Shown: positions 33,254-64,000, numbered from the stretch's first letter. The stretch is DNA of 64,000 nt from a bacterium (GCA_030524925.1 JAUNFS010000002.1:2202-66201); one strand, 5' to 3'. Made by a program: numbers and translations. Notes: generated by a model from the letters alone, not told the origin.

Positions 33254-33502
33254 AATAATTCTCCTTTTTAAAACACATAAAAACCTAGAAAATAGTCTTA
33301 GTGATAAATTCCCGCGCACTCGCAAGGTGGGCATCACATAGAAGGCTTTAGGAGTCTAGATTAAATCTAGCTTTCTACACCACCTCTAATTAGATTCCCA
33401 ATATTCACCATTGACGGATTTATATTTAACCATCTTCTAGGTACTTTAATTATATCATAGATTTTTAATTTGTTAGCAAAAATCACATAATTTTACATTT
33501 TT

Positions 33503-33992: not shown

Positions 33993-35759
33993 TTAGTTGC
34001 TTGCCTTATGTTCATATAAATACACATTTTTTGATGCAGTTAGACAAACATTGTAATATAAAAGTTTTTCAAGATCTAATTCTATACCCATTATTTGATT
34101 GATTATTGGTGCTTCTAGAAGTCTATTGTTATCTTTGATAATTATTGTGTAGTCTGCTTGTTCTTCTTTGCATCTTCTTGCTAGAATAAATTTAATATTT
34201 AGATCTTTACGATTTTTATAAATTATATTTTGACTATTTATTTCGTAGTTTTCATTTAATAATTTTATATCACCAGGATATCTGATTGCTAATAGAACTG
34301 TACTATTTTCTGGTAAGGTATTAAGTGTTTCATCAATATTAGAAATAATTTCTTCTTTTATTTCACTATTTTGTTCTGGAGATACTTTTCTAACGTTGTT
34401 ATCTAGTAAGTACTTAGGGTTTGAACCGTTAGTTTGGTAAATGCATTCTTCTACTTTACCTATGAGTGTATATGATGCATTACAATGATTTATTAGTTCT
34501 TTAATAAAATTATAATTATTTGTTGTTAAGTTCATAGCCTCATCCACAATGATATATTTGTAATTATAGTCTTGTTCTTTTATTAGATAAATGGCTTTAT
34601 TTATTAGATTATTTATTTCATTATCTTTGATATTTGCTAGATAATCATTATAAATTGGTGATACTAGTTCAATTAGTTTCTTATTTTGAAGACTAGTATT
34701 AAATGTTTCAAGCGTTTGATTAGATGAAATTAACTGAGTGATAATTATTTGGTATAATTCTACTATACTATCAATAACGTTTGAATTTTTAGAAAGAATA
34801 TCATTCCATAATTCATTTGCTTGTCTTGGATTAAATGCTACTTGATGAGTCTTTAGATTGTTATATAAATTTGTAAGCAATTTTCCTTCTAGTTTTTCTT
34901 TTGCATAACAGATTATATCATTGTTTTCTTCACTTTGATTTAATAGATATTTAATAGTGATATTATAGTCTGGTAGATTAAATTTGTCATCTTCGTATTT
35001 GTAGTTTATTTGGTTTTCGTATAAGAAGTTAGCGATGTCTACTTCATCAAAGTTATGCACTAGTTCATTATTAAAAGTTAATGGCTTATTAAGTTTGTAA
35101 TAATTATCTTTTTCTTCGTCACTAGTAAATTCTAAATCATTTTTTCTTTTGAAGTGATAATGTATTAGATATTTACATAGTTTTGAAAGATAAGTATCTT
35201 CTTTTAATAGAGAGTTTAGTTTATCTTTAATAAAGCCTTCTACGTTGGTGTTTTGAATTTTAATATTTTCATTAGTATCTTTATTGATAAGTTCTAAGAC
35301 TAAATTATTTATAGTACTTATCTTTATTTCGTTAGTAGGATTTATTTGATTATTTAATTCTTTAACATCTTTATTTGTATATGGTATTATTAAAATCTCT
35401 TTACGGTTAATATTTTTTTCTAGAAGTTTAGTAACTTTTTCTTTGATTATTTCTAGTTTGTTTGAGTGAATTCCAGCATATATTATTTCATTTTGAACAG
35501 TGCTATCTTTAATGTTTTGGTTGTGAGAATTAATCTTGATTTCAGCTTCTTCTAAATTTTGACGAATTGTTTTGCAAAGTTCCTGAAGTTCAGTAGATTT
35601 TGTTTTTTCATTGTCATTTAGGAAACTAGTTGCAAGATTTAGATAAGTGTCTTTGATGTTTTCGGGAATTACTTTGTTAGGGTTTTTAAAAAAGTCATTA
35701 TAGTTTTCTATAAGACTTTGTGCTACTAATATCATTTCTTTTAGATCATTTTCATTCAT
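33993..35759 (-). CDS. UvrD/PcrA-like SF1 helicase homolog with degenerate Walker A (probably ATPase-inactive)
   Basis: Motif Ia-like ILIIPYTNKDVKEL, motif II IIVDEAMNL, motif III-like IGKVEECIYQTNGSNP, and a C-terminal KFILARRCKEEQADYTIII. The expected Walker A AGAGSGKT is replaced by AGIHSNKL. Confidence 0.5.
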   Translation of the reverse strand: MNENDLKEMILVAQSLIENYNDFFKNPNKVIPENIKDTYLNLATSFLNDNEKTKSTELQELCKTIRQNLEEAEIKINSHNQNIKDSTVQNEIIYAGIHSNKLEIIKEKVTKLLEKNINRKEILIIPYTNKDVKELNNQINPTNEIKISTINNLVLELINKDTNENIKIQNTNVEGFIKDKLNSLLKEDTYLSKLCKYLIHYHFKRKNDLEFTSDEEKDNYYKLNKPLTFNNELVHNFDEVDIANFLYENQINYKYEDDKFNLPDYNITIKYLLNQSEENNDIICYAKEKLEGKLLTNLYNNLKTHQVAFNPRQANELWNDILSKNSNVIDSIVELYQIIITQLISSNQTLETFNTSLQNKKLIELVSPIYNDYLANIKDNEINNLINKAIYLIKEQDYNYKYIIVDEAMNLTTNNYNFIKELINHCNASYTLIGKVEECIYQTNGSNPKYLLDNNVRKVSPEQNSEIKEEIISNIDETLNTLPENSTVLLAIRYPGDIKLLNENYEINSQNIIYKNRKDLNIKFILARRCKEEQADYTIIIKDNNRLLEAPIINQIMGIELDLEKLLYYNVCLTASKNVYLYEHKASN

Positions 35760-35762
35760 GTA

Positions 35763-37532
35763 TTAGTTTGTTCCTTTCCATCTAGCGTAGACATTACAGT
35801 TACTTGAGTATGGTAATGGGTTTGGAAGATCCATTTTAATTAATAAAGGTATTTTAAAAGCGTTACCGAATGATACAAGGGTGCCTGATTGTAACGAGTT
35901 TAATTTTTCAATGATGTCACTTGATACATTTGGAAGCATTTTTTCAATATATTCTAAGTCTTTTGGATGGGTCATTTTTAGAACTAAGAAGTTACTCATC
36001 TGAGCTACAACTGTTTCTGAGATGTCTACTGGTCTTTGAGATATTAAATCTATTAAGACACCATATTTACGACCTTCTTTAGCGATACGTTCAAAGATAT
36101 TATAACCTAGTAAGAATTTATCGTTGTCTGCTACTACATATCTGTGGGCTTCTTCTATAATTAGATGAAATGGAATTGATGCTCTTACTTTACGTGATTT
36201 AGAAAAGTCAAAGACCATTTTACTAACTATTTTTACAATTACTTTTGCTAGGTTGTCATCTATATCTTCTAGGTTGATGTTAATTATTTGACTTCTTTTA
36301 TGATTTAGAACTATTAAGCTTGAGATATATTGTTCTAGGGTTATGTACTGATTAATTTCAAAGAATAATGCGTTACGACTATTAATGATTGAGTGAAGTC
36401 TAACTTTTAAGATGATTGCTGAATCTTGCATTTGTCTATTAGTTAAGAATCCTTCACCAATTAGGGTAAATTCTAGGGCTTTTTCTAGATCTTTTAGTGT
36501 GAAAAATGCGTTTGTTGGAACTTCAATAGAACTTTCTAGTTCTTCGTTTAGATTTTTAGCGATGTATTCATTAATTAGAACGCTTTCACCAAACTCACCT
36601 TTATTATCTATTTTAAAACATTCACTAAATCTTCTTGTATAACCGATTCCTTGAATTTCCGTGTTCATACTGAATGCTGGAGTTGAACATGATGAGATAA
36701 TTGTGAAGATGTCATTTTTCTTACCACTTGCGTTTTGGTTACTGAATAAAACTGATTGAATAGCTTTAGCAATTAAGTGGTTTTTTAGTTTTTCAGTATC
36801 AGCATCATTTTTACTAAATAGCTTTGCTAGTTTCATCATTCTTTCAATAATTGTTAACTGTGAGTGGTTTTCAGCATTTAATAAAAGTGCGATATCATCG
36901 TTTGTAAATAAGAATATTGGTAATCTAAATAAGACGTCAGTTTCATCAGTTGGATTGGTTGTTAAAAATTTGTACTGATATACGTCACTTATTTGGTTAA
37001 TGTCTTTAAAAGCATTTTTATATTCACCGTAGGCATCAAATATAAATAAATTGGCATTAGCGGCTTTAAAGTTTTGGTTTAGGAAAATATTTTGGACAAT
37101 TCTTGATACTGAACATGATTTACCTGAACCAGAGTTACCAAAGATAGCTAAGTGGTTTGAAAATAAGTCATTGATGTTTGCGTAGATGTTTCTATCTTTG
37201 TAGATTGGACTTTTGCCAATATAGATTGATTCTTCGTCATTTTTGCCCATGATGATGTCTAATTCTTCATCGTTAATAACTCTTAGGGAACTTGTTAGTG
37301 TAGGTTTTTTGATGGTACCTGCGATAAATCTAGTACCGGTAAATTCACCCAAAAGTTCAATTTTCATGGTATTTTCGTCGACATTTTTAACTTCGCCTAA
37401 TAGTTTGTCACCATTTGATTCAAAGACTACATGAAGATTCATTAAGTTACTTATGACATTGCCTTCTTTATTAATTTCTACTATGGCAGTATTATCACTA
37501 ATATATTTTATTTTTCCAAACATGTTAACCAA
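35763..37532 (-). CDS. HerA-like (DUF87) ATPase
   Basis: N-terminal HAS-barrel-like region. Walker A FGNSGSGKS and Walker B HLIIEEAHRY are characteristic of HerA/FtsK-superfamily DUF87 ATPases. 3-bp gap to the downstream gene. Confidence 0.65.
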   Translation of the reverse strand: MVNMFGKIKYISDNTAIVEINKEGNVISNLMNLHVVFESNGDKLLGEVKNVDENTMKIELLGEFTGTRFIAGTIKKPTLTSSLRVINDEELDIIMGKNDEESIYIGKSPIYKDRNIYANINDLFSNHLAIFGNSGSGKSCSVSRIVQNIFLNQNFKAANANLFIFDAYGEYKNAFKDINQISDVYQYKFLTTNPTDETDVLFRLPIFLFTNDDIALLLNAENHSQLTIIERMMKLAKLFSKNDADTEKLKNHLIAKAIQSVLFSNQNASGKKNDIFTIISSCSTPAFSMNTEIQGIGYTRRFSECFKIDNKGEFGESVLINEYIAKNLNEELESSIEVPTNAFFTLKDLEKALEFTLIGEGFLTNRQMQDSAIILKVRLHSIINSRNALFFEINQYITLEQYISSLIVLNHKRSQIININLEDIDDNLAKVIVKIVSKMVFDFSKSRKVRASIPFHLIIEEAHRYVVADNDKFLLGYNIFERIAKEGRKYGVLIDLISQRPVDISETVVAQMSNFLVLKMTHPKDLEYIEKMLPNVSSDIIEKLNSLQSGTLVSFGNAFKIPLLIKMDLPNPLPYSSNCNVYARWKGTN

Positions 37533-49436: not shown

Positions 49437-50927
49437 TTAATCGGGGAGCGCAACTGTGTATGGATCTTCAATTTCACCAGTTCCTCCTGTTATTAGGATA
49501 TTTTGTTTTAAGGTTATAGCTGGACGGGCTCCATAATCAGTAATCGTTAGGATAGCGGATAGTTCACCATAGCGCTGACCTCGAATGCCAGCATCGTCGT
49601 AGGAGTAGCGGTAAGGGGACATCAACCAATATTTACCATTATTATTTAAATAATTAGTACTTGAACCATAAAAGGCAAGTTTTGCTTCTTTAGTAGTTAA
49701 TAAACCCACAGGATAGTCTAAAGCATTATTTCCATATCCTAAAGTTCCTCCAGAATCTACTTTCAATGTAAATTGATCTTCCTTATCTTGACAGGTTAAT
49801 CTTAAATTTTTTTCATCAAAATCATTAAAGTGTAAATCTGTTGTTATACTTCCGCCACTTGGGTTCCATGCGCTTGCAGATAAATTTGTTATGTATCTAT
49901 TATTACAATATATTGCATTTTCTAAATAATTCGTTATATTTGTCATATTTGAACTATACCAGTTATCTATTACTTTTTTTATATTACTATTTGTTGTATT
50001 GTAATTTAACATTTCGTCTATGGCATTTTCTATTTTTTTACCATTCTTTAGTGTTATATAATATGCATATTCTACGCTACCACCCGGCAAAGTGCCCACA
50101 TAACTTATATAATATACAGTTGAACACCTTGTACTTGTACTTAAACATGTATAATGTTTATTTCTTAGTTTACTATTTATATTTGCTACTGCTACACTTT
50201 CTGCATTACTTAATGTATATGTTGTTCCATTCCATGTTACATTACTTCCATAATAATATTTTCCAAATGATGATACTATTTTTTCAGAAGTTGCATACAC
50301 AGTTCCATACATATATCCTACATACGCTAGAGACCCATTTCTATTTGAATTATATCTTGTTCCACTTGCTTCCAAATAAACATCTGTTCCTGTGTTATTG
50401 CATTTTGTATCTTCTTTATATAATCCATTATAAATAAGCTTTACTCCATCTGTTTCTGTTGTTCTTACCATTTTCCAACAATAATTATTTAATACTAAAT
50501 TATTATTTGTTATATTACCTGCATAATAATATACATCTTTACCATTTTCATCTGTTGTTTTTTGTACTCCATTATTTTTAGCATAGTCAGCTAGAACTTT
50601 ATCGTATACTGTTGAGCTCTTGGTGAAATCAACATTACATTTTGTTTTATTTTGAGTGATACTAGTTACGTTAAATACCCATTTACTTCCGTTCCATACG
50701 GCTGTGCCACTTCCTTTTGAACAGGTAACTACTCCAATATAGCTGGATGTAGTGGGAAACTTATCTGATTCTTTACCGTCTATGGTTATTGCCAAAAGTG
50801 CTTCTTCTTTTTCGTTCCACTTAGCATCTACTAAAGTTTCGGTTTCGTAATTTTTTAAAAATATGACACCAGTTATTACTACAAATACACTCAAAAGAAG
50901 AATGAATGATACATTTTTATTTTTCAT
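49437..50927 (-). CDS. membrane-anchored Asn/Thr/Tyr-rich surface protein, paralog family member B
   Basis: N-terminal signal anchor. Shares motifs with gene A (NYCWKMVRTT, AYVGYMYG, YWLMSP…YGARPAITL…DPYTV). GGTGG RBS. Confidence 0.55.
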   Translation of the reverse strand: MKNKNVSFILLLSVFVVITGVIFLKNYETETLVDAKWNEKEEALLAITIDGKESDKFPTTSSYIGVVTCSKGSGTAVWNGSKWVFNVTSITQNKTKCNVDFTKSSTVYDKVLADYAKNNGVQKTTDENGKDVYYYAGNITNNNLVLNNYCWKMVRTTETDGVKLIYNGLYKEDTKCNNTGTDVYLEASGTRYNSNRNGSLAYVGYMYGTVYATSEKIVSSFGKYYYGSNVTWNGTTYTLSNAESVAVANINSKLRNKHYTCLSTSTRCSTVYYISYVGTLPGGSVEYAYYITLKNGKKIENAIDEMLNYNTTNSNIKKVIDNWYSSNMTNITNYLENAIYCNNRYITNLSASAWNPSGGSITTDLHFNDFDEKNLRLTCQDKEDQFTLKVDSGGTLGYGNNALDYPVGLLTTKEAKLAFYGSSTNYLNNNGKYWLMSPYRYSYDDAGIRGQRYGELSAILTITDYGARPAITLKQNILITGGTGEIEDPYTVALPD

Positions 50928-50950
50928 TTTACCACCTATTTTCTTCTTTT

Positions 50951-50980
50951 ATTATATAACAACCCCCCCCCGTGTCAACT
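50951..50980 (-). promoter_or_regulatory. promoter of surface protein gene B with a G9 homopolymer in the -35/-10 spacer
   Basis: Minus strand reads AGTTGACA-C-GGGGGGGGG-TTGTTA-TATAAT. TTGACA and TATAAT are separated by 16 nt, of which 9 are a G run. TATAAT lies ~30 nt upstream of the RBS. Confidence 0.6.
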
Positions 50981-51128
50981 AGGGATGTGGAAAACTTGGT
51001 GGTCAGTGCGAACAATTGTGTGTAGTAAAAAACATCCTACTTTTGATTGTTTTTTAGGATGTTTGGTTATTTAGTTTCTATCTCCTACTAATTTGTCTCA
51101 TAACGAAAAACAATAGGCTTTTGTTAGT

Positions 51129-51539
51129 CTATTGTTTTAGTATTTTTTCAAGTGCTCTATATGGAAGTGTAGCACAAGTTTTACGGCTTTCTTGTTTATA
51201 GATTTCATCAAATGCTAGGGCTTCTTCTAAGCCTTCTTGATGATATGGTTTTTCGTTTACCATGTTTTCAAAGTTCTCTATATATTCTTCTGCTTCTTCA
51301 ATAGTTTTACCTATGATGTTTTTGATCATAACTGATGTTGAAGCAGTTGATATAGCACAGGCTTCTCCATCAAAGTATGCATCTTTAATTATGCCATCTT
51401 CTAGCTTTACGAATACATTTATATCATCAATACAAGATACGTTATTAGCATTTGCTTTTAGAAAGTCATTTTTGGTTTCTTTATGAAAAGGATTTGTGTA
51501 ATTTTCTAATAATATTTCTCTTTTTAGTTCTGGTTCCAT
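51129..51539 (-). CDS. sufU: SUF system Fe-S assembly scaffold (SufU/IscU-like, NifU family)
   Basis: Conserved Cys motifs (…DGEACAISTASTS…, C-terminal CATLP) and typical size. Confidence 0.8.
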   Translation of the reverse strand: MEPELKREILLENYTNPFHKETKNDFLKANANNVSCIDDINVFVKLEDGIIKDAYFDGEACAISTASTSVMIKNIIGKTIEEAEEYIENFENMVNEKPYHQEGLEEALAFDEIYKQESRKTCATLPYRALEKILKQ

Positions 51540-54269: not shown

Positions 54270-56525
54270 TTATTCTTCGGGTTTATTTTCTATTTTAACT
54301 AAGACTTCTCTTGGTTTTGAACCGTTTGGACCTCCAATTATTCCTCTTTCTTCTAATAGGTCAATGATTCTAGCTGCACGGTTGTAGCCGAATCTAAATC
54401 TTCTTTGAATTAGTGAAGCACTGATCTTACCGGTTTGAATAGCAAAGTCTACTACTTCGTTGTACATTGGGTCATCATATTCTTCTTTAGGACTATCAGC
54501 TCCAGCCATGTGATCATCTGGCACTTCGGTAATTGAGTTGTCGTATTTAGCTAGCTGCTCATGAGATACATAGTCTATTAATCGTTCTATTTCTTCGTCA
54601 GAAATGAATGTACCTTGAATACGTGTTGGGGTGTTTTCACCCATTGGTAAGTATAACATATCACCTTTTCCTAGTAGTTTTTCCGCACCGGCGGCATCTA
54701 GGATTGTACGAGAGTCAATTTGACTTGCTACGGCAAAGCTAATTCTTGATGGAATATTGGCTTTTACAACACCAGTGATAACGTCAGTTGATGGTCTTTG
54801 GGTTGCAACGATTAAATGAATACCAGCAGCACGAGCCATTTGGGTAATACGCATAATTGAGTCTTCTACTTCTTTGGCAGCAACTAACATTAGGTCAGCA
54901 AGTTCATCAATGATTACTACTATATATGGTAGTTTTGGAACGTTTACATCATTCCCTTTATTTTTCTTTTCAATAAGTTCGTTATAAGTTTTAATATTCT
55001 TGGCGCCAGCTTCACTAAATAGATCGTACCTTCTTTCCATTTCAATTACAATCTTTTGAAGAGCAACGTTGGCTTTTTTAGGATCGGTTACAACTGGACA
55101 TAGTAAGTGTGGTACTCCGTTATAGTTAGATAGTTCTACTTTTTTAGGGTCTACTAGTACTAGTTTGATTTCATCAGGTTTCATGAACATTAAGATTGAG
55201 GCGATGAAACTATTAATACATACAGATTTACCACTACCAGTAGAACCAGCTACTAGTAAGTGAGGCATTTTTGAGATGTCACCACAGCAGGTTCTTCCCA
55301 TTAGGTCTTTGCCTAGGGCCACTAGGATTTTAGCATCAGCCATATTTTTAGGAATGCTATTTAAGACTTCTCTAAGAGGAACAGATGCAATATTTCTGTT
55401 TGGTATTTCAATTCCGACAGTACTTTTGCCAGGAATTGGTGCTTCTATTCTAACATCTTTGGCAGCCAGTGCTAGAGCAATTTCTTTATTGATACTAGTT
55501 ATTCTACTTACTTTAGTACCAGCTTTAATTTCTACTTCAAACTGAGTTACAGCTGGGCCCTCATGAATAGCGACTACTTTACCAGTTATTTGGAAGTCAC
55601 TTAATGCTTTCTCAAGAGCAATACGGTTCTGATTTAAGAATTCTGTGGTATTGCCTTTAGTACTTTTCTTAACTGGATTTAAAATGTCTAATGATGGTAG
55701 TTTGTATTCACCTGCTTGAGCAGGCGTATTATCTACGGTAATGGCTGTTTTAGGTTCTTTTTCAGGCTCTTCAGTATGATAATTTTTTAAGTCTTCTGAA
55801 CTGGTAATAATGACTTTTGATTCTTCTTTTACATCTACTGTGTCAGGTTCACTGTGAGTTATGATAGCTCCAGTTTCATCATCATCGTCTGATGGCTTAA
55901 ATAAACTTGATTCTGATACACCTTTATTAATCTTTTTAAAGATATTACCAATTTTCTTGAACATGTTACCAAATGATAAATCAAATAACATAAATAGTCC
56001 AAATGCACCAAGAACGCCTAGGATTATATAAGTTCCTTTGATATCAAAAAGATTTACTAGTCCCCAAGCAAAGAAAGCACCAATGATGCCACCGCCAGTT
56101 TGGCCAATATTTAAGTAGTTTGTATCACTAATTGTGGTCATGAAATTATTGATGGTATTTTGGAAAACATCACTAGTTTTAATTTTTGCTGCATCATTAA
56201 TATAATCTATATGAGAAAACGCTAAAAGTGCAATTAAAGCAATGTATAAACCAATTAATCTACCACTAAAGAATTTTGGAGGTTCTCTTTTAATAATCAT
56301 AAATAAGCCTAAGATAAGTAAAATTATGATAAATATTGACCACCAAGTTCCCATTAAAAAGATAGAAAATGATTTAACAATATGTCCGACAGGGCCAAAG
56401 TTACCTATCCCGATTATACTTACTAAGACAAGGATAAGACCAGTTAGCTCTGAACTAAATTTTACTTTACCTTCATCACTGTTTTTACGTTTTTTCTTCT
56501 TTGCCATACTATTCACCATATCCAT
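54270..56525 (-). CDS. ftsK: DNA translocase FtsK
   Basis: N-terminal TM helices, a linker, then a motor domain with LLVAGSTGSGKSV Walker A and DELADLM Walker B. C-terminal gamma-domain-like ASLIQRRFRFGYNRAARIIDLLEERGII. Confidence 0.9.
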   Translation of the reverse strand: MDMVNSMAKKKKRKNSDEGKVKFSSELTGLILVLVSIIGIGNFGPVGHIVKSFSIFLMGTWWSIFIIILLILGLFMIIKREPPKFFSGRLIGLYIALIALLAFSHIDYINDAAKIKTSDVFQNTINNFMTTISDTNYLNIGQTGGGIIGAFFAWGLVNLFDIKGTYIILGVLGAFGLFMLFDLSFGNMFKKIGNIFKKINKGVSESSLFKPSDDDDETGAIITHSEPDTVDVKEESKVIITSSEDLKNYHTEEPEKEPKTAITVDNTPAQAGEYKLPSLDILNPVKKSTKGNTTEFLNQNRIALEKALSDFQITGKVVAIHEGPAVTQFEVEIKAGTKVSRITSINKEIALALAAKDVRIEAPIPGKSTVGIEIPNRNIASVPLREVLNSIPKNMADAKILVALGKDLMGRTCCGDISKMPHLLVAGSTGSGKSVCINSFIASILMFMKPDEIKLVLVDPKKVELSNYNGVPHLLCPVVTDPKKANVALQKIVIEMERRYDLFSEAGAKNIKTYNELIEKKNKGNDVNVPKLPYIVVIIDELADLMLVAAKEVEDSIMRITQMARAAGIHLIVATQRPSTDVITGVVKANIPSRISFAVASQIDSRTILDAAGAEKLLGKGDMLYLPMGENTPTRIQGTFISDEEIERLIDYVSHEQLAKYDNSITEVPDDHMAGADSPKEEYDDPMYNEVVDFAIQTGKISASLIQRRFRFGYNRAARIIDLLEERGIIGGPNGSKPREVLVKIENKPEE

Positions 56526-56580
56526 TGTACTAAATTTATTTAAAAAAATCTAGATTAAAGCGACTATTATTGACTGGGAT

Positions 56581-59500
56581 TTATTTTTTAAATGTACTTA
56601 AGTTTTTTTCTTGGCGAAGATGTTTTTTTATTTCGGCTTTCATATCATTAAAAATTTGCTCAAAATTAGAATTAGCGACTTGTTCTTTTTCTCTTATGAT
56701 TGAGCTTTCAATTGGTATTTGCTCACCAGTAGGTTCTGCTAAAACTATTCTTATACTTTTACCAGTAAAACCATCAAAAGCAGTTATGTTAACGATATAT
56801 TGTCTTAAAAAACTATTTAGAGCTGTTTTATCATTTAAGATTTTGGAATTTTCATAATCATTAAATGTGATAGTTACGTCCCTACTATGGTTAACTCTAA
56901 AGATAGTAAAACTTTTTAGTTCGGTAGGTATTTCCACGGTGAGATTTGAAGAATTTGAAAAATGGTTCAGAATATATAGATGATCTATTTCTTTATTTAG
57001 AATAATTTTATTTACTGCAGAAATATCCCCATTGAAGCTTGTAGGTCCATCTAATATGATTTCACTTAGTCCGTTTGGTAGTGTTATAGTGCTAGGCTTA
57101 TATTTTCTTAATTTATATATTGTGATTTGTTCCACTGGGTTATTATATGCTGGTTTCATTCTAAAAACTTTTATTCCTGGAAGAATAAACTCTTTTTCAT
57201 TTGGTACTAATGACGGAGATAATACATTATAGAAATTGTATATTTTATATAAAGATTCTCCTAACACGTCAAGCCGTTTTTCTTGTGGAACGCTATCAAT
57301 GAGTTTTAATAATGTTAACAACGGAATTTCATCACAAAAGTGTTCATCGTAAGTGATTTCTTTTAGTAATTTTGTACAATCTTGATTTTTGATTTTGATA
57401 TTTTGAAAAAGTTCAATAATTCTTTCTAGTGGATTGGGATAATTTAGTGCGTTATAGAATTCTAATAACATCTGATTATTTAGTATATCATCTTGAATGT
57501 TATTTTCATCTTTAGTAAAGAATAAACTTTTATAAGCTACCTCTAGTCTTAGTGCGTCATTATGAGTTATTGCTTTGCTTGTAAGTTTCTTTTTTAATAG
57601 TTCTTCTTGATCAATATTCCCATATGAAAGAGTTTGATTATTTGATATTTTGTTTTTCATTATTTCTTTGATGATTTCAACTGTTTGAGGTGATAAATCA
57701 TTTAATGAAGTGATACCACTTTCATAACTGGCTATTGCATAATTAAAATACTCTTCTACTATACTTTTAAATTTATTTTTATCTATTAGTCCTAGACTTA
57801 CTAAGATTTCTAATTTTTGGAGATGTTTTTTGACGTCATCTTTAGTTGTTTGATTATTTTGAGATTTTTGAAAAGACACTTTATATTCACTAATAATTGC
57901 AGAAGGCAGATTGATGCTAGATGCTTTTTTAACAATATTTTGATAAAGATCGTAAATGTCTTTTGTTTTATATGTTAGTTTTATTTTAGGATTTATTTCT
58001 ATTCCAAGTGCCTTAGCATAATTTATTAGTTTATTGTATATTTCTTTAAGTTTGCCTCTAAACATTTTATAAATTTTAAAAATATAGTCTTTGTTTGAGT
58101 AATCTATTGCTCGTTCAAGTTCTTTGCGTGGTATCTCCTTAGTATCAATAGTAAAATTTAAAACTTCAACTGGATAATTAAAGTGAAATTTTGATTGCTG
58201 AAGAAATAATGTTTCGGTCATATCACATTCTTTTAGAAGTTCTATGAAGCCTTCTTGAGTTTCAAGAACTTCACAATCAAGGTAATTATTAAATACCCAA
58301 TCATGTGGTGGGTGTGATAAACTAATTTTTTTGATTGTTGAAGGAAATTCAATGGTGTCAAATTGCATTTCTCTTGTGGAAATGAATTCTTTTAATCCTT
58401 CGTTAAATTTTAGCTTAAGGTCAAGATTTACTAGTTTATCAAATGTCACTTCATAATACATTTTGGAAAATGCATCTAGATTAATTTTATTTAAAGAGCT
58501 TGGAAATTCAATTGGTGTATTATCGTATTTTAATCTTTCTATAAATGGGTTAAAAATCTCGCTGTAGTAGATTAAAACTGGTGTATGTAATAACGTCGCA
58601 TAATCGTCACTAATATATTTGACACCGTTTGGTATTTCTCTATTAGTTTTGGTGTTTAAAATTGTTTTAAAGATTAATGAATAAAGCTGAACTAAAGCGT
58701 AAAGTTTTTGGTTGCTTTTTATAAACTGAGCAGTATTAGATTTCATAAATACTATTACCATTTCTTGTTTGGTTTCATTTTTTGGCACTTCTACTTCATT
58801 TGATAGAAAACTCATAAAAGTAGATAATGGTATTTGATCTGAAAAATCAAAGGTTTTTAAGTCGTTAATATATACATAAATATTTCTACTTTCTACTAGG
58901 TAATTATCAAAGAAACTTGTAATAAGATCCGGGGATGAAATGCTAGCTAAAAGTGCAAGTTTAAATGGTGTATTAAAAATGTCACTAGCACTAAATTCGC
59001 CACTATTATTTGTAATTATTTGTTTTAGAAGGCGAACTAGTCTCTCATATTCATTTACTCGAATAGTTCCATTATTTTCTTCTGATGTGCTTTTATAAGA
59101 GTCATAGATTTTATCTGCTGGGTCTTTTGATATTACATTAATTAGCTTGAGTAGAATGGTCTCTAAGCTTGCTTGCTCTTCTTTGAAGAATGAATCAAAT
59201 GATATTCCATTATAGTCATTACTTATTGCAAGATTACATAAGATGTTAAATTTGGTATTAAATAATTTTTCTTTTAAGTTATCTATTTTTTGATACCCTA
59301 ATTCTTCTATACCGATACATTTAGCAATTAGTTTGTCTAGTTTTTCTAGTTGTTCTTTTGGTGGAAGATTAGATGATAGAAGTTTTGTTAAATCTTCACT
59401 TATAGTGTTTGCCAGGTGACTATCGTTATATATTTCATCTTCTATTTGAACTGTGGCTTTAGCAATGCTAACTGGAGTTATTTCATTTAAGCTAATGTCA

Positions 59501-60117
59501 AACCCTTCAATAATTTTTTCGTACCTTTTTAGAGTAACTTCGTTTTCTTCTTTAGGCAGGTTTAGTGATTTTATCCTATCTTTTAAAGTGGTTATTTCTA
59601 GTAAGTTACCAGTTATGGCATTTTGCATGCTGATAATTTGGATTTCAATTTGACTTATTAAGTTCTTTATTGTATTTTTCTTATTCAGAGACATGAATGG
59701 ATTTCTTTTTAGAATATTTTCTAAAGCTGCTTTTTTAAGAAATAAGTTATTGATATGGTTTACGATAAGTGTGTGATAAAGCTTTTGTTTTTCTTCTAAA
59801 ATAGATAAATAAGTGTGTTCTTTTTTATCACTTTGATTTATGGGATCTAGAATAAAGTCTATTTCTAAGTTAATTTTTGTTAGTTTGTTTATATAGTGAT
59901 GTAAATATTTATCATCTTCTAGTTTTAAATCTAGTGATGTTAAGGTTTTATTTTGGTTAAGCTTAGCTAGATATACTCTTTCGTAAGTTTTAATTTCATT
60001 TTTATTTTCATGATAAAAATCTTCATTTGGTTTATAAATGAAGACTTTACCGGTTGTTATAAAATTGGTATTTGTATTAATTTTTTCTTTTTTAAATAGT
60101 TTACTAAATAGCCCCAT
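56581..60117 (-). CDS. giant cytoplasmic-type protein (1178 aa), tandem paralog A
   Basis: No signal peptide. Coiled-coil-rich N-terminal third. C-terminal half has beta-rich segments with possible BspA-like LRR_5 units (TIEFPSTIKKIS, ITLPNGLSEII). AAGGAGA RBS. Starts 48 bp after paralog B. Confidence 0.5.
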   Translation of the reverse strand: MGLFSKLFKKEKINTNTNFITTGKVFIYKPNEDFYHENKNEIKTYERVYLAKLNQNKTLTSLDLKLEDDKYLHHYINKLTKINLEIDFILDPINQSDKKEHTYLSILEEKQKLYHTLIVNHINNLFLKKAALENILKRNPFMSLNKKNTIKNLISQIEIQIISMQNAITGNLLEITTLKDRIKSLNLPKEENEVTLKRYEKIIEGFDISLNEITPVSIAKATVQIEDEIYNDSHLANTISEDLTKLLSSNLPPKEQLEKLDKLIAKCIGIEELGYQKIDNLKEKLFNTKFNILCNLAISNDYNGISFDSFFKEEQASLETILLKLINVISKDPADKIYDSYKSTSEENNGTIRVNEYERLVRLLKQIITNNSGEFSASDIFNTPFKLALLASISSPDLITSFFDNYLVESRNIYVYINDLKTFDFSDQIPLSTFMSFLSNEVEVPKNETKQEMVIVFMKSNTAQFIKSNQKLYALVQLYSLIFKTILNTKTNREIPNGVKYISDDYATLLHTPVLIYYSEIFNPFIERLKYDNTPIEFPSSLNKINLDAFSKMYYEVTFDKLVNLDLKLKFNEGLKEFISTREMQFDTIEFPSTIKKISLSHPPHDWVFNNYLDCEVLETQEGFIELLKECDMTETLFLQQSKFHFNYPVEVLNFTIDTKEIPRKELERAIDYSNKDYIFKIYKMFRGKLKEIYNKLINYAKALGIEINPKIKLTYKTKDIYDLYQNIVKKASSINLPSAIISEYKVSFQKSQNNQTTKDDVKKHLQKLEILVSLGLIDKNKFKSIVEEYFNYAIASYESGITSLNDLSPQTVEIIKEIMKNKISNNQTLSYGNIDQEELLKKKLTSKAITHNDALRLEVAYKSLFFTKDENNIQDDILNNQMLLEFYNALNYPNPLERIIELFQNIKIKNQDCTKLLKEITYDEHFCDEIPLLTLLKLIDSVPQEKRLDVLGESLYKIYNFYNVLSPSLVPNEKEFILPGIKVFRMKPAYNNPVEQITIYKLRKYKPSTITLPNGLSEIILDGPTSFNGDISAVNKIILNKEIDHLYILNHFSNSSNLTVEIPTELKSFTIFRVNHSRDVTITFNDYENSKILNDKTALNSFLRQYIVNITAFDGFTGKSIRIVLAEPTGEQIPIESSIIREKEQVANSNFEQIFNDMKAEIKKHLRQEKNLSTFKK
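59130..60117 (-). repeat. ~1-kb 5' segment of paralog A, near-identical to 62710-63696 in paralog B
   Basis: Long stretches are identical (for example 59920-60070 vs 63500-63650). The protein N-termini are >90% identical for ~325 aa, after which the proteins diverge. Confidence 0.75.
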
Positions 60118-60165
60118 AGTTAAGTCTCCTTTAGTAATTTTATTTTATCATAATGTATTATTATT

Positions 60166-63100
60166 TTAAAGTGATGCGCTTTTGGTATTACTTTTGTTTA
60201 AATGTTTTTTTATTTCCTCAATTAGTATTTGCTGCTGATATTTTTTATCAGGATTAAATTTGGCTTTTGCTTCTATATCTTGCCTTGTTATTACTACTGG
60301 CTCAGCGCCTTCTTGTTTTAAGACTATTTCGCTTTGAGCACTAAATTCGTTTAAAAAACTATGAGCAATACAAGAAAGTATGTGGGGCGAGTTTAAGATT
60401 TCCGAATTTTGATAGTCAATAAATTCTAAGGAAATGTTGTTGCCTGGAGCGATAATGTCGTGACTTTTTATGTTTGGTGGAATCACAATTGTGGTTTTAA
60501 ATATAGAATTTCCTGTTCGTGGCTTTGATAATGAAATAAATCCAACATCATCAGTTAAAGTAATTTTAGATATTCTTTCAAAAGGGTTTCCATTATCAAA
60601 AGAATTTTCATTTTTTAAAGCATTAAAATAGTCTAATCCAGGAAAAAATTTTATGCTTTTGGTTTTTGATTTGTTAAAAAGTTTCGCAGAATAATTATAA
60701 AGGTATTTGCAACTGTTATTAAATATGAAATCTTTTATTCCAGGAGGAATTATTTCTTCCTCGTCAACTGGTAAATATGCTTTTAATTCATTATATAAAT
60801 CTAGTAAATTTAATATAGTTTCTCCTTCAAATGGTTTTAAGTCTTTTTTAGGTACTTCGTTTAATAATTTAAGTACAGTAAGTACTGGTACTTTATTACA
60901 AAAATAGTAGCTATCGGCAATATTTCCTAAGAGTACTCTATATGCTTTTTTACTAATTGTTATAGTATTTAATGATTTAATAAAATTAGCAATAGGAGTT
61001 GGCTTTATTAGTGCACTTAAAAGTTCTAATAATATAGGTGAATAGATTACTTCAACTTTAGTTTTTGGCGATAAAGAACTTTTTAAAAAGATAATGTTAA
61101 TCTTGGATTTTATTTTCTTAACTGCATTTGGATCTATTTTTTTCGTAATTAAGCCGGTCTCTATTAGCGATTCTTGACTAGCCTCATCTAAATAATTTTT
61201 GCTGGCACTAGATAATTCTTCATCCATTGCATTTAATATGTTTTCTTTTAAAGTTGTATTAACAACACTTATAGAAAGTTCATTAATTATTTGAGTACCT
61301 CTTTCGTAATTTTTAAGTATGCTTATAATCACATTTTTTGTAACAGCTTTAAAGGTATTACTTGACATTAAGCCTAATTCATTTAGAACTTCAGCTTTTT
61401 TTAAGAGTTTTAGTTTATTATCTTTTGTTTCATTTGTATTATCTAGATTATTGCTTGATGTTATAATTTCATTTGTTAAATTACTTGCAGATTTAATAAT
61501 TTTATTATAAAGATTTTTAATATCCTCTATGCTGAATTCACTAGTTTTGCTATTTAAATCTAATGGTAGTTCTAGGATATTTGCTAGTTCAGATAATCTT
61601 TTATAAACTTCTTCTAATTTAGAATTAAACAATTTATATATTTTATCTTTTAGTTTAGTTCCAGTTTCTTTATCATAACCAATTAATTCTTCAAATTCAT
61701 GAGCATACATCGTAAAATCAAATATTGGCAAGTGATGTTTAAATTCTATGCCACAACCATATTTAATAAAATCATGCCATGGAATACCGTCAAATAGTTT
61801 CATAAATTTTTCTTTAGATGATAAAGCGTCACAATTTAGATAGTTATTAAATTCCATATTTGCTTGAAAACCACTTATTTCAGTTATTGTTGAGGGAAGC
61901 TGTACAAGACTTAGTTGGACTGGCATACTATATTTGTTTGATAAACTAATAAATTTTTTAGTTCCTTCTTGTAATTGTATAGTAAGCTGGCTTTTTATAA
62001 AGTCATAACTATAGCTTAAAAAACCTGGTAGTCTATATAGACTTATGTCAATGCTTTCTAAGGATTTAGGACAGCAAAGCGTTGGAGTATCAGGATATGT
62101 TTTAATGCAAGAATATAGTTTGGTATAAAGATAAAAGATATTAGCTGAAGAAATTTTGTCTGATGTCCTAATGTTTTTTACGCCTTCTGGCATTTGTCTA
62201 TATGTACCAGAAATTCTTATTATTCTATATAAAAGTTCATATAATTTAATAAGACTACGGAGTTTTTGGTTTTTTGAAATCTTTTCAAAACCTAACTTGA
62301 TAATGTCTTCTTCTTTTTCATCCTTGTTAAGAGTAGTAAATTTATCTAAGTTATTTGGCTCTTTAAATAGTAATTCATTTGATAAAATTTTTAGAAATGA
62401 ACTTAACGGTAAATTCTCAGTGTATTCTATATAATCATTTTTGCTAATGTAATTAAAAAGTTCACTACTTTTTACTAAATGGTTATTAAAATAACTTATT
62501 AGCTGATTTGGTTCGCTTATTCTAGCAAGAAGCGCAAGTTTAAATGGTTTATTAAAAATATCTTTTGCAGAAAAGTCGCCATTTTTATCAGTAATGATTT
62601 CTTTTAGTATTTTGATTAGATCATTATAAATAACAGAATTCATTTCACTTGCATTTTGTTTTGCAGCTTTGTCGTACGCATTATAAATTTCTTTGCTTGG
62701 GTCTTTTGATATTACATTAATTAGATTAAGAAGAATGGTTTCTAAGCTTGCCTGCTCTTCTTTGAAGAAAGAGTCAAATGATATGCCATTATAGTCATTA
62801 CTTATTGCAAGGTTACATAAGATGTTGAATTTGGCTTTAAATAATTTTTCTTTTAAGTTATCTATTTTTTGATACCCTAATTCTTCTATACCGATACATT
62901 TAGCAATTAGTTTGTCTAGTTTTGTTAATGTTTCTTTTGGTGGAAGATTAGATGATAAAAGTTTTGTTAGATCTTCACTTATAGTGTTTGCTAGATGACT
63001 ATCGTTATATATTTCGTCTTCTATTTGAACAGTTGCTTTAGCGATAGTAACTAGGGTTATTTCACTTAAGTTAATATCAAACCCTTCAATGATTTTTTTG

Positions 63101-63696
63101 TATCTGCTTAAAGTAACTTGGTTTTCCTCTTTTGGTAAATCAAGGGATGCTATCCTATCTTTTAAAGTGGTTATTTCTAGTAAATTACCAGTTATGGCAT
63201 TTTGCATGCTAATTATTTGAATCTCTATTTGGCTGATTAAATTTTTAATAGTGTTCTTTTTGTTCATAGACATGAATGGGTTTCTTTTTAAAATATTTTC
63301 TAAAGCTGATTGTTTTAGAAATAAGTTATTGATATGGTTTACGATTAAAGCATGATAAAGTTTTTGCTTTTCTTCTAAAATAGATAAATAAGTGTGTTCT
63401 TTTTTATCACTTTGATTTATGGGATCTAGAATAAAGTCTATTTCTAAGTTAATTTTTGTTAGTTTGTTTATATAGTGATGTAAATATTTATCATCTTCTA
63501 GTTTTAAATCTAGTGATGTTAAGGTTTTATTTTGGTTAAGCTTAGCTAGATATACTCTTTCGTAAGTTTTAATTTCATTTTTATTTTCATGATAAAAATC
63601 TTCATTTGGTTTATAAATGAAGACTTTACCGGTTGTTATAAAATTGGTATTTGTACTAATTTTTTCTTTTTTAAATAGTTTACTAAATAGCCCCAT
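60166..63696 (-). CDS. giant cytoplasmic-type protein (1176 aa), tandem paralog B
   Basis: Same architecture as paralog A. Lies 15 bp downstream of the lepA stop. Confidence 0.5.
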   Translation of the reverse strand: MGLFSKLFKKEKISTNTNFITTGKVFIYKPNEDFYHENKNEIKTYERVYLAKLNQNKTLTSLDLKLEDDKYLHHYINKLTKINLEIDFILDPINQSDKKEHTYLSILEEKQKLYHALIVNHINNLFLKQSALENILKRNPFMSMNKKNTIKNLISQIEIQIISMQNAITGNLLEITTLKDRIASLDLPKEENQVTLSRYKKIIEGFDINLSEITLVTIAKATVQIEDEIYNDSHLANTISEDLTKLLSSNLPPKETLTKLDKLIAKCIGIEELGYQKIDNLKEKLFKAKFNILCNLAISNDYNGISFDSFFKEEQASLETILLNLINVISKDPSKEIYNAYDKAAKQNASEMNSVIYNDLIKILKEIITDKNGDFSAKDIFNKPFKLALLARISEPNQLISYFNNHLVKSSELFNYISKNDYIEYTENLPLSSFLKILSNELLFKEPNNLDKFTTLNKDEKEEDIIKLGFEKISKNQKLRSLIKLYELLYRIIRISGTYRQMPEGVKNIRTSDKISSANIFYLYTKLYSCIKTYPDTPTLCCPKSLESIDISLYRLPGFLSYSYDFIKSQLTIQLQEGTKKFISLSNKYSMPVQLSLVQLPSTITEISGFQANMEFNNYLNCDALSSKEKFMKLFDGIPWHDFIKYGCGIEFKHHLPIFDFTMYAHEFEELIGYDKETGTKLKDKIYKLFNSKLEEVYKRLSELANILELPLDLNSKTSEFSIEDIKNLYNKIIKSASNLTNEIITSSNNLDNTNETKDNKLKLLKKAEVLNELGLMSSNTFKAVTKNVIISILKNYERGTQIINELSISVVNTTLKENILNAMDEELSSASKNYLDEASQESLIETGLITKKIDPNAVKKIKSKINIIFLKSSLSPKTKVEVIYSPILLELLSALIKPTPIANFIKSLNTITISKKAYRVLLGNIADSYYFCNKVPVLTVLKLLNEVPKKDLKPFEGETILNLLDLYNELKAYLPVDEEEIIPPGIKDFIFNNSCKYLYNYSAKLFNKSKTKSIKFFPGLDYFNALKNENSFDNGNPFERISKITLTDDVGFISLSKPRTGNSIFKTTIVIPPNIKSHDIIAPGNNISLEFIDYQNSEILNSPHILSCIAHSFLNEFSAQSEIVLKQEGAEPVVITRQDIEAKAKFNPDKKYQQQILIEEIKKHLNKSNTKSASL
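62710..63696 (-). repeat. ~1-kb 5' segment of paralog B, near-identical to 59130-60117
   Basis: See the matching repeat entry at 59130-60117. Confidence 0.75.
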
Positions 63697-63711: not shown

Positions 63712-64000
63712 TTATTCGCCTTCTTTTAAAATGCTTAAGAAAGCTTCTGGTGGCACTTCTACACTACCAACCATTTTCATTCTTTTTTTACCTTCTTTTT
63801 GTTTTTCTAAAAGCTTACGCTTACGTGATACGTCACCACCATAACATTTTGCTAGAACGTTTTTACGCATGGCACTGATGTTTTCTCTTGAAATGACTTT
63901 TGAGCCAATACTGGCTTGAATAGGCACTTCAAACATCTGCCTTGGAATAAGAGTTCTTAAAGATTTAGTTATAGCATGGCCTCTGTTGTAAGCAGCATCT
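63712..64000 (-). CDS. lepA: elongation factor 4 (LepA), C-terminal part; gene continues past the window edge
   Basis: C-terminal sequence …[52 protein letters not shown] is the conserved LepA C-terminal domain. The frame is open to position 64000. Confidence 0.8.

What the first reader, a model, noticed from the sequence alone, without database searches (positions are those of the whole stretch)
56581..63696. Tandem ~1177-aa paralogs with a homogenised 5' kilobase and divergent C-terminal halves
- Two adjacent giant genes are co-oriented between lepA and ftsK.
- They share near-identical DNA over their first ~1 kb (protein identity >90% for ~325 aa), then drop to about 40-50% identity.
- This pattern suggests recent duplication plus 5' gene conversion, or a constant N-terminal module fused to diversifying C-terminal cargo, as in polymorphic effector or variable-antigen loci.
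- Neither protein has a signal peptide. The C-terminal halves carry beta-rich, possibly BspA-type LRR-like units.
- The ~1-kb direct repeat is also a substrate for deletion or duplication by homologous recombination.
Basis: seen in the sequence. Interest (0 to 1): 0.65.

Follow-up and report, generated by a model that had tools for sequence, protein, structure and literature searches.

The report
Recombining tandem array of giant genes
Two neighbouring giant genes in an uncultured gut bacterium belong to a small, undescribed family: copies keep a nearly identical front third by copying it between each other, the rest diverges, and the shared front lets strains fuse and lose copies.

Summary
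Two co-oriented genes on the minus strand, B (60166-63696, 1176 aa) and A (56581-60117, 1178 aa), lie between lepA and ftsK.

**Similarity between the two genes**
- Nt 1-329 differ at one base (dS 0.016).
- Nt 330-999 are 88% identical (dS 0.57, dN/dS 0.08).

**Variation among ten related metagenomic loci**
- The full array is B-A-C. Other states are A-C, B only, and B-D-C. The window has B-A.
- The first gene of the A-C state is a clean B::A fusion, with the crossover inside the shared 5' kilobase.
- So 5' gene conversion and repeat-mediated copy loss are both shown.
- The duplication itself is old, not recent.

**The proteins**
- They have no signal peptide, transmembrane segment, lipobox or Walker A motif, and no Pfam, NCBIfam or PADLOC hit.
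- They consist of a constant all-alpha N-domain with no structural match, followed by two duplicated modules of helices and short, weakly BspA-like LRR units.
- The family is tiny: 29 clusters among 1.84 billion representatives, from low-GC gut bacteria labelled "uncultured Tenericutes".
- An independent tandem array of the same family shows the same 5' pattern. Other lineages carry a single copy.

Function is unknown. It is not a recognisable toxin, lipoprotein or defence system.

The parts
63715..64000 (-). 3' end of lepA. Its stop codon lies 15 nt upstream of the start codon of gene B, so B is probably co-transcribed with lepA (inference).
   Evidence: Pfam LepA_C E 7.5e-43; sequence of the junction.
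60166..63696 (-). Gene B (1176 aa), first cassette of the array. It has the constant N-domain plus a B-type variable body. The B body is the most polymorphic cassette among strains.
   Evidence: 98.7% to the B reference; B C-terminal dN up to 0.19.
63368..63696 (-). Nt 1-329 of gene B: recent gene-conversion tract, one mismatch to gene A.
   Evidence: donor direction inferred from L008_B versus L006_B.
62697..63367 (-). Nt 330-1000 of gene B: the rest of the constant N-domain coding region. It is 88% identical to A, mosaic, and under strong purifying selection.
60118..60165 (-). 48-nt B-A spacer with a ribosome-binding site (AAAGGAG) and a TG-extended -10-like match. It holds no ORF, so no immunity-type gene.
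   Evidence: the same spacer is seen in L007 and L009.
56581..60117 (-). Gene A (1178 aa), second cassette: constant N-domain plus A-type variable body.
   Evidence: 95% to the A reference.
59789..60117 (-). Nt 1-329 of gene A: partner of the conversion tract.
59083..60117 (-). Constant N-terminal domain of A (aa 1-345): all-alpha, confident model, no structural match. The extreme N-terminus MGLFSKLFKK is the most conserved motif of the family.
   Evidence: (pLDDT 84.3, pTM 0.77).
58255..58983 (-). Module 1 of A (about aa 379-621): helices followed by short LRR-like beta units.
   Evidence: hhalign module 1 versus module 2, E 2.2e-5, 208 columns; profile match to PDB 4fdw/4fd0; secondary structure of the model.
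56827..57489 (-). Module 2 of A (about aa 877-1097): internal duplicate of module 1.
   Evidence: pLDDT 80-90 in this part of the full model.
56526..56580 (-). 55-nt A-ftsK spacer. It matches the C-ftsK spacer of three-cassette strains, not their A-C spacer. It marks the scar of a precise loss of cassette C, with the junction at the AAAAAATAA stop region.
54270..56525 (-). ftsK, the downstream boundary of the array. It is a true FtsK with 4TM, alpha, motor and gamma domains, not an EssC-type secretion ATPase.

Best explanation
The two genes are neighbouring members of a small, lineage-restricted multigene family of an uncultured low-GC gut bacterium. The nearest named genome is 'uncultured Tenericutes UMGS1372'.

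**Protein architecture.** Each protein has three parts:
1. A constant all-alpha N-terminal domain of about 335 aa.
2. A first variable module of helices plus a few LRR-like beta units.
3. After a helical linker, a second copy of that module.

**Array evolution (shown).** In this species the site between lepA and ftsK holds an array whose full form is B-A-C, with a one-module cassette D as an alternative in the middle position. The shared 5' kilobase is the handle through which the array evolves:
- Short tracts are copied between paralogues. In the window, nt 1-329 of B were overwritten by the A-type sequence.
- Crossover between the 5' regions of adjacent genes fuses them and removes a cassette. 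The B::A fusion gives the A-C state.
- Other copies are lost by deletion or point mutation. The window itself has lost C.

**Selection (shown).** The N-domain is held by strong purifying selection (dN/dS about 0.1). The variable bodies evolve several times faster (dN/dS 0.2-0.5) and, for B, exist as deeply diverged alleles.

**Function (inferred, not shown).** The N-domain probably provides a common function such as assembly, anchoring or signalling. The variable modules probably provide different binding specificities. The proteins probably stay inside the cell or at the inner face of the membrane, because they have no export signal. Strains therefore differ in their repertoire of binding modules.
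For: **Gene conversion**
- Window A/B dS is 0.016 (codons 1-110), 0.57 (111-333) and about 1.3 (421-end).
- The run of 329 nt with one mismatch has P of about 3e-8.
- L006_B and L008_B have identical bodies (dS 0.004) yet are only 89.9% identical in nt 1-300, where L006_B is 100% identical to L006_A.
- N-domain dS between 'orthologues' is 0.2-0.6, above the flanking lepA/ftsK dS of 0.02-0.18 among the metagenomic loci and above the dS of the same genes' bodies.

**Recombination and copy number**
- Locus states: B-A-C (L006, L008, L009, L010), A-C (L001, L003, L004), B only (L007), B-D-C (L011), B-A (window).
- L001 gene 1 is 98-99% like L009_B to about nt 700 and 100% like L010_A from about nt 800.
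- L007 keeps a decayed 230-nt 5' remnant of the next gene.
- The window's A-ftsK spacer is the C-ftsK spacer.
- L010 C carries a 1-nt frameshift, and L009 A has its start codon changed from ATG to ACG.

**Family**
- 26 close relatives among 5.8 billion proteins.
- 29 clusters among 1.84 billion representatives, all sharing the N-domain, with lengths of 575-1169 aa.
- An independent three-gene array (986, 709 and 700 aa) at another locus has 85-99% identity over its 5' 600 nt.
- Singletons occur in other lineages.

**Architecture**
- N-domain model: pLDDT 84, pTM 0.77.
- Internal duplication: hhalign E 2e-5.
- LRR-like match to PDB 4fdw/4fd0: E 1e-4.
- No transmembrane segment, lipobox, LPXTG or Walker A motif.
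Against: - Function and cellular location are untested. The LRR assignment is weak: Pfam LRR_5 was never hit.
- All comparison loci are short-read metagenome assemblies, in which repeats can be mis-joined. However, the chimeras carry their own diagnostic substitutions and recur in independent samples and assemblers.
- dN/dS of 0.2-0.5 in the variable bodies shows relaxed or mixed selection, not gene-wide positive selection.
- Several lineages keep one stable, well conserved copy. One 90% cluster has 713 members. Diversification is therefore not a property of the whole family.
- Loss of C from the window did not use the 5' repeat.
Confidence: 0.7

Rival explanations
1. Variable surface or adhesin family. 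The proteins are exported by an unrecognised route, with the N-domain or its conserved first 10 residues acting as the export or anchoring signal. The variable LRR-type modules bind host or dietary ligands, and cassette turnover provides antigenic or adhesive variation.
For: - BspA-like LRR proteins are typically surface adhesins (background knowledge), and there is a weak LRR match.
- The variable bodies evolve fast, cassettes are polymorphic, and B has deep alleles.
- The extreme N-terminus is the most conserved motif of the family.
- The source is gut metagenomes.
Against: - No signal peptide, transmembrane segment, lipobox or LPXTG.
- No secretion genes next to any of the five locus types seen.
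- The neighbouring ftsK is a true FtsK, not an EssC-type ATPase.
Confidence: 0.13
2. Intracellular immune sensors. The constant N-domain is an effector or signalling part, and the variable LRR-type modules recognise phage or other foreign proteins, as in NLR-like systems. Tandem arrays and turnover reflect an arms race.
For: - The architecture is a constant domain plus variable repeat modules.
- Presence/absence variation, pseudogenes and deep alleles occur among strains.
- The proteins look cytoplasmic.
Against: - No NTPase motif and no PADLOC hit.
- The N-domain shows no catalytic-looking conserved residues.
- The loci sit among housekeeping genes, not in defence islands, and B appears co-transcribed with lepA.
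- At least one intact copy is kept in every strain, and singletons are highly conserved.
Confidence: 0.1
3. Polymorphic toxin or effector locus. A conserved N-terminal trafficking domain carries swappable C-terminal toxic cargo.
For: The N-terminal region is constant and the C-terminal region variable, the genes are in a tandem arrangement, and there is recombination at the constant part.
Against: - No LXG, Rhs, CDI or other trafficking domain, and no toxin domain, in Pfam or NCBIfam.
- The variable part is about 840 aa of structural repeats that are homologous between cassettes, not a short unrelated toxin.
- No immunity ORF fits in the 48-59-nt spacers.
- No secretion system lies nearby.
Confidence: 0.03
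4. No homogenisation at all. The similarity of the 5' third is only purifying selection on an essential domain, or the identical tract is an assembly artefact.
For: - The N-domain dN/dS is about 0.1, so selection does explain much of the protein identity in aa 111-333.
- The comparison loci are metagenome assemblies.
Against: - Synonymous sites are also identical in codons 1-110 (dS 0.016), although the same stretch differs by about 10% between 5' alleles in other strains.
- The mosaic patterns and the B::A fusion carry strain-specific substitutions and recur in independent samples.
- Collapsing a repeat during assembly would give one copy, not two.
Confidence: 0.04

Closest known systems
Listeria monocytogenes internalin cluster inlG-inlC2-inlD-inlE versus inlG-inlH-inlE
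   Same: Tandem co-oriented paralogues that encode LRR-type binding proteins with a shared 5' part. In some strains two neighbours are fused by recombination into one gene, with loss of a copy: inlH is the 5' end of inlC2 joined to the 3' end of inlD (PMC3977354). This matches the B::A fusion seen here.
   Different: Internalins have a signal peptide, a defined cap-LRR-IR fold and a cell-wall anchor. The proteins here have none of these. Here the shared part is a separate all-alpha domain, not the LRR itself.
Helicobacter pylori bab paralogues (babA/babB/babC)
   Same: Paralogues with homologous 5' ends and divergent bodies. Gene conversion in the first few hundred bases produces chimeras, and strains differ in which paralogues they carry and how many (PMC4552749).
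   Different: The bab genes lie at dispersed loci and encode outer-membrane adhesins, with phase variation by CT repeats. Here the genes are tandem, no repeat tract was found, and there is no export signal.
BspA-type leucine-rich-repeat proteins (Pfam LRR_5; solved examples PDB 4fdw, 4fd0)
   Same: A family profile aligns about 65 residues (roughly three 'P-x-S-[VL]-K-x-I' units) to 4fdw and 4fd0 at E 1e-4 and 9e-4. The AlphaFold model shows short regularly spaced strands in these regions.
   Different: No Pfam LRR_5 hit was found at any threshold tried. There are only a few units per module, and Foldseek found no LRR structure. The proteins also lack a signal peptide.
Polymorphic toxin systems (LXG, Rhs, CDI)
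   Same: A constant N-terminal part and a variable C-terminal part, with recombination at the constant part.
   Different: No trafficking domain, no toxin domain, no immunity gene and no secretion system were found.
Mycoplasma variable surface lipoprotein loci (Vsp/Vlp/Vsa type)
   Same: Clusters of paralogues with a highly conserved 5' end in a low-GC organism labelled 'Tenericutes' in its genome record.
   Different: No lipoprotein signal or lipobox, no in-frame tandem repeats, and all genes are co-oriented with no recombinase beside them. The constant part here is a 335-aa folded domain.

Membership tests
Tandem multigene family evolving by gene conversion and unequal crossover | Adjacent co-oriented paralogues that share a long, highly similar segment | tested here: met
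   The first 999 nt are 92% identical, and the genes are 48 nt apart.
Tandem multigene family evolving by gene conversion and unequal crossover | Conversion tracts: stretches whose synonymous divergence is far below that of the neighbouring sequence, and whose phylogeny follows genome or position rather than gene type | tested here: met
   dS is 0.016 against 0.57 and about 1.3. The 5' identity matrices show L006_B identical to L006_A, while L008_B (same body) differs by 10%.
Tandem multigene family evolving by gene conversion and unequal crossover | Copy-number variants and fusion genes with breakpoints inside the shared segment | tested here: met
   One to three cassettes are seen. L001 gene 1 is a B::A chimera with the crossover at about nt 700-800.
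BspA-type LRR proteins (Pfam LRR_5, PF13306) | Match to the Pfam LRR_5 model at or near its threshold | tested here: not met
   No LRR_5 hit for the full proteins, for 25 family members, or for isolated module segments at E up to 10.
BspA-type LRR proteins (Pfam LRR_5, PF13306) | Repeated units of about 23 aa that form a beta-solenoid similar to solved BspA-like LRRs | tested here: inconclusive
   The profile matches 4fdw/4fd0 at E 1e-4 and 9e-4 (full-length profile) and 6e-3 and 8e-3 (module profile) over about 65 aa. The model shows regularly spaced strands. Foldseek against PDB gives no LRR hit.
Polymorphic toxin systems (LXG/Rhs/CDI) | Recognisable N-terminal trafficking domain and C-terminal toxin domain | tested here: not met
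   Pfam and NCBIfam give no hits. The variable bodies are homologous repeats.
Polymorphic toxin systems (LXG/Rhs/CDI) | Immunity gene directly downstream of each toxin gene | tested here: not met
   The spacers of 48, 55 and 59 nt contain no ORF.
Mycoplasma-type variable surface lipoproteins | Lipoprotein signal peptide with a lipobox cysteine | tested here: not met
   No hydrophobic N-terminal segment, no lipobox, and the first Cys is at residue 267.
Mycoplasma-type variable surface lipoproteins | In-frame tandem repeats, or switching driven by a site-specific invertase | tested here: not met
   Tandem Repeats Finder reports only three two-copy matches of 12-18 nt. All genes are co-oriented, and the neighbours are lepA and ftsK.
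STAND/NLR-like defence sensors | Central NTPase (Walker A motif), or a match to known defence-system models | tested here: not met
   No Walker A motif and no PADLOC hit for A, B, C or D.
PspA/Vipp1/ESCRT-III-like membrane remodellers (considered because of the MGLF... N-terminus and a long helical hairpin) | Structural similarity of the helical hairpin core | tested here: not met
   Foldseek of the confident N-domain model against PDB gives a best E of 0.16, with no PspA/Vipp1 entry among the top hits. The hydrophobic moment of residues 2-12 is unremarkable.

The most novel reading that the evidence does not exclude
The array could be a cassette-exchange device of a new kind of intracellular or membrane-associated receptor family. 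The constant 5' kilobase would serve as a recombination handle. It would move alternative binding-module cassettes into and out of the lepA-linked, probably constitutively expressed, first position. Populations of this gut bacterium would then continually vary which specificity they express. The constant all-alpha N-domain, which has no structural relative, would be a new signalling or effector domain, for example in phage sensing.
Probability: 0.1. Interest if true: 0.7.

Novelty: new member of a known kind. Interest (0 to 1): 0.42.

Why it matters
- **A clean worked example.** It shows how a shared gene segment drives conversion, fusion and loss of neighbouring genes. The example comes from an uncultured gut lineage with a small, mostly housekeeping gene neighbourhood.
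- **A new protein family.** The family has no Pfam, NCBIfam or PADLOC match. Its N-terminal domain gives a confident predicted fold with no match in PDB. It is among the fastest-evolving loci next to highly conserved genes, which usually marks proteins that interact with something that changes, such as host, phage or competitors.
- **A practical warning.** The repeat breaks or confounds short-read assemblies. The species' reference genome contig ends inside it. Gene content at this locus is therefore under-reported in MAG catalogues.

Tried and rejected
- **Family libraries.** Pfam, NCBIfam, PADLOC and PHROGs scans of A, B, C and D gave nothing meaningful. Pfam on 25 family members and on isolated LRR-like segments also gave nothing.
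- **Sequence search of PDB.** phmmer with the single protein returned only noise.
- **Structure searches.**
  - Foldseek of the full-length model (pLDDT 67.7) against PDB and BFVD returned only long-helix noise.
  - Foldseek of the confident N-domain model against PDB gave no match.
- **Profile search for distant members.** A search of the 5.8-billion-protein set with the wider alignment did not return them. They came only from the exhaustive representative search.
- **Mobile-element checks.** There were no relatives in IMG/VR or in GenBank phages, so a prophage or mobile origin was dropped.
- **P0034 context.** Its contig was only 3.7 kb and uninformative.
- **N-terminal membrane helix.** The idea that MGLFSKLFKK is a strong amphipathic membrane helix was not borne out. 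Its hydrophobic moment ranks 243 of 1168 windows.
- **T7SS/EssC link.** A link through the neighbouring 'FtsK' was rejected. It is a true FtsK with a gamma domain, and other lineages have different neighbours.
- **Phase variation.** No tandem repeats or terminators were found. The L010 frameshift is not in a long homopolymer.
Full report
**1. What is in the window**

Two complete ORFs lie head to tail on the minus strand. Gene B is at 60166-63696 (1176 aa) and gene A is at 56581-60117 (1178 aa), with 48 nt between them.

Upstream is the 3' end of lepA (Pfam LepA_C, E 7.5e-43). Its stop codon is 15 nt from the ATG of B. Downstream, after 55 nt, is a true ftsK with 4TM, alpha, motor and gamma domains, followed by sufC, a sufBD-type gene, sufS and sufU.

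GC content is 25-29% across both genes, the same as the surroundings. No intrinsic terminator-like site occurs anywhere from lepA to ftsK. Promoter-like matches are no more frequent than expected in shuffled sequence.

**2. The observation**

Whole-protein identity is 47%, but it is very uneven.
- The first 340 aa are 92.9% identical. The remaining about 840 aa are 29% identical.
- At the DNA level, nt 1-329 contain one mismatch, nt 330-999 contain 78 (88% identity), and from nt 1000 mismatches are dense.

Synonymous and non-synonymous divergence by region:

| Codons | dS | dN |
|---|---|---|
| 1-110 | 0.016 | 0.004 |
| 111-333 | 0.57 | 0.044 (dN/dS 0.08) |
| 334-420 | 0.99 | 0.53 |
| 421-end | about 1.3 (near saturation) | 0.71 |

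A run of 329 nt with at most one mismatch has a probability of about 3e-8, given the mismatch density of the first kilobase.

Only the first 329 nt are truly near-identical. The C-terminal identity is about 29%, not 40-50%.

**3. Relatives and the locus in other strains**

The family is tiny.
- There are 26 relatives among 5.8 billion proteins. All come from public metagenome assemblies (mostly ENA) and none carries a functional name.
- The only hit among 185,579 species genomes is 'uncultured Tenericutes bacterium UMGS1372'. Its contig ends 93 nt into the first family gene, which is an assembly break at the repeat.

The C-terminal bodies fall into four cassette types:
- A and C are 51% identical to each other.
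- B is 28% identical to both A and C.
- D has 775 aa and one module, and is about 25% identical to all the others.

Ten loci between lepA and ftsK show these states:

| State | Loci | Notes |
|---|---|---|
| B-A-C | L006, L008, L009, L010 | C has a 1-nt frameshift in L010; A has its start codon changed ATG to ACG in L009 |
| A-C | L001, L003, L004 | first gene is a B::A fusion (section 4) |
| B-D-C | L011 | D occupies the middle position |
| B only | L007 | a decayed 230-nt 5' remnant of the next gene remains |
| B-A | window | C has been lost |

The window's 55-nt A-ftsK spacer is the C-ftsK spacer of three-cassette strains, not their A-C spacer. The junction sits at the AAAAAATAA stop region. 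A and C are far older than the strains: their bodies are only 51% identical, against a flank dS of 0.3 or less. The window has therefore lost C rather than never having had it (inference).

**4. Gene conversion and unequal crossover are shown**

*Conversion.*
- L006_B and L008_B have identical bodies (dS 0.004) but are only 89.9% identical in nt 1-300.
- In that stretch L006_B, L006_A, L008_A, window A and window B are 99.3-100% identical to one another.
- So in the L006/window lineage the 5' end of B was overwritten with A-type sequence.

*Fusion.*
- The first gene of the A-C state is a clean chimera. L001 gene 1 is 98-99% identical to L009_B up to about nt 700, and 100% identical to L010_A from about nt 800.
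- This is the expected product of a crossover between the 5' regions of B and A that removes the body of B.

*Orthology is broken in the N-domain.*
- Between 'orthologous' copies in different strains, N-domain dS is 0.2-0.6.
- That is higher than the flanking lepA and ftsK among the metagenomic loci (dS 0.02-0.18) and higher than the bodies of the same genes (0.02-0.2 for A and C).
- Segments are evidently exchanged among paralogues in this region.

*Selection also contributes.* The N-domain has dN/dS of 0.06-0.14, so selection as well as conversion keeps the proteins alike.

**5. Selection on the variable bodies**

The bodies have dN/dS of 0.2-0.5, against 0.01-0.07 for lepA and ftsK.

B has deep alleles. 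Body identity among strains is 68-100%, with dS up to 0.53 and dN up to 0.19, in strains whose flanks differ at dS of about 0.1. The variable stretches of B are about aa 560-880 and aa 1000-1120.

This indicates fast evolution. It does not demonstrate gene-wide positive selection.

**6. The wider family**

An exhaustive profile search found 29 clusters (at 50% identity) among 1.84 billion representatives. All match from residue 1 through the N-domain, and lengths are 575-1169 aa.

In at least four other lineages, pairs of clusters share 61-88% identity over the N-terminal 250 aa but only 23-45% identity, or no detectable similarity, in the C-terminal part.

One of these lineages (L015, Hadza gut) has an independent tandem array of 986, 709 and 700 aa at a different locus. 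The first 600 nt are 82-99% identical in a mosaic pattern, and identity then drops to about 55%.

Other lineages have a single, well conserved copy at yet other loci. There is no conserved gene neighbourhood.

No relatives were found in phage collections.

**7. The proteins**

*Negative results.*
- No Pfam, NCBIfam or PADLOC hit, and nothing meaningful in PHROGs.
- No transmembrane segment, signal peptide, lipobox, LPXTG or Walker A motif.
- No tandem repeats.

*N-domain.*
- With a 20-sequence alignment that includes distant members, aa 1-345 gives a confident all-alpha model (pLDDT 84.3, pTM 0.77). The first 24 residues are unstructured.
- Foldseek finds nothing in PDB; the best E is 0.16.
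- The most conserved motif of the whole family is the extreme N-terminus, M-x-[LIF]-F-x-[KR]-L-F-K-[KR]. Its hydrophobic moment is ordinary.

*Full-length model.*
- The model is mediocre overall (pLDDT 67.7) but good for aa 570-1160.
- It shows two blocks of helices, each followed by regularly spaced short strands.
- Its numbering is protein minus 1, because I trimmed the start codon rather than the stop codon in the query.

*Modules.*
- The two blocks are an internal duplication: hhalign E 2.2e-5 over 208 columns, about aa 379-621 against 877-1097.
- A family profile matches two solved BspA-like LRR proteins, 4fdw and 4fd0, at E 1e-4 and 9e-4 over about 65 residues. A module-only profile gives E 6e-3 and 8e-3.
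- Pfam LRR_5 is never hit, and Foldseek finds no LRR structure.
- 'LRR-like' is therefore a reasonable but unproven label.

**8. How it most likely works**

*Shown.*
- The array evolves through its shared 5' kilobase, by conversion tracts and fusion-deletion.
- The N-domain is strongly constrained and the bodies diverge.
- Strains differ in their cassette repertoire.

*Inferred.*
- The N-domain supplies a common function, such as assembly, anchoring or signalling.
- The duplicated modules supply different binding specificities.
- The proteins remain in the cell, because no export signal is present.
- B is co-transcribed with lepA, because the gap is only 15 nt.

The rival readings are a surface adhesin, an immune sensor, a polymorphic toxin, and selection alone without conversion (or an assembly artefact). 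They are weighed in their own section. The toxin and no-conversion readings are contradicted by the data. The adhesin and sensor readings remain possible.

**9. Comparison with known systems**

The genetics closely resemble two known cases.
- In Helicobacter pylori, the bab paralogues form 5' gene-conversion chimeras and vary in copy number (PMC4552749).

The proteins themselves are not members of those families. They are also not polymorphic toxins, Mycoplasma variable lipoproteins or STAND-type sensors, because defining features of each were tested and not met.

**10. Verdict**

This is a real and well-behaved example of a known evolutionary phenomenon, in a previously undescribed and very narrowly distributed protein family. 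It is of moderate interest.

'Recent duplication' was wrong. The effector or antigen analogy is unsupported so far.

Noticed in passing
window 33278-33446 (-): A 6S RNA gene (Rfam RF00013, 48.6 bits, just above the gathering score of 46.4). It is the only Rfam match in the window. No tRNA genes are present in the 64 kb.
   Followed up: no
window 50928-51128, between sufU (51129-51539) and the 496-aa ORF at 49437-50927; L001 19104-19856; L010 17105-17857: A Fic-domain gene (PF02661) follows sufU in related strains but is absent from the window. There, sufU is followed by a 496-aa ORF with an N-terminal hydrophobic segment and no Pfam hit. This is a second presence/absence polymorphism close to the array.
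   Followed up: partly
window 54270-56525 (ftsK) compared with 56581-63696: The window's ftsK differs from all other strains at dS 0.28-0.33. The bodies of its cassettes A and B differ from L006/L008 only at dS 0.06-0.09. The array is thus less diverged than its flank, which suggests it was imported by recombination between strains.
   Followed up: partly
window 33993-37532 (-): A HerA-like ATPase (DUF87, E 3e-20; 35763-37532) is followed by a 588-aa ORF with no Pfam hit (33993-35759). They may form a two-gene module of unknown role.
   Followed up: no
L002 10001-10093 (URUT01000017.1, 'uncultured Tenericutes UMGS1372'): The contig of the species-representative genome ends 93 nt into the first family gene. 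The repeat evidently breaks short-read assemblies, so the locus is missing from that reference genome.
   Followed up: yes
L015 10001-17270: An independent three-gene tandem array of the same family (986, 709 and 700 aa) occurs in a different lineage and at a different locus. It lies after serS and some small ORFs, and is followed by coiled-coil and membrane ORFs and an IS element. It shows the same homogenised 5' pattern.
   Followed up: yes
L001 1997-2731 (also L003, L006-L009, L011): An ADP-ribosyl-exotoxin-like gene (PF03496, 244 aa) sits between recO and an AlaRS-like gene, two genes upstream of lepA, in an otherwise housekeeping gene string. It lies outside the window.
   Followed up: no
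L011 8001-10328: Cassette D (775 aa, one module) occupies the middle position in place of A. Its 5' homology to the other cassettes ends at about nt 700, as for C. Its origin is unknown.
   Followed up: partly
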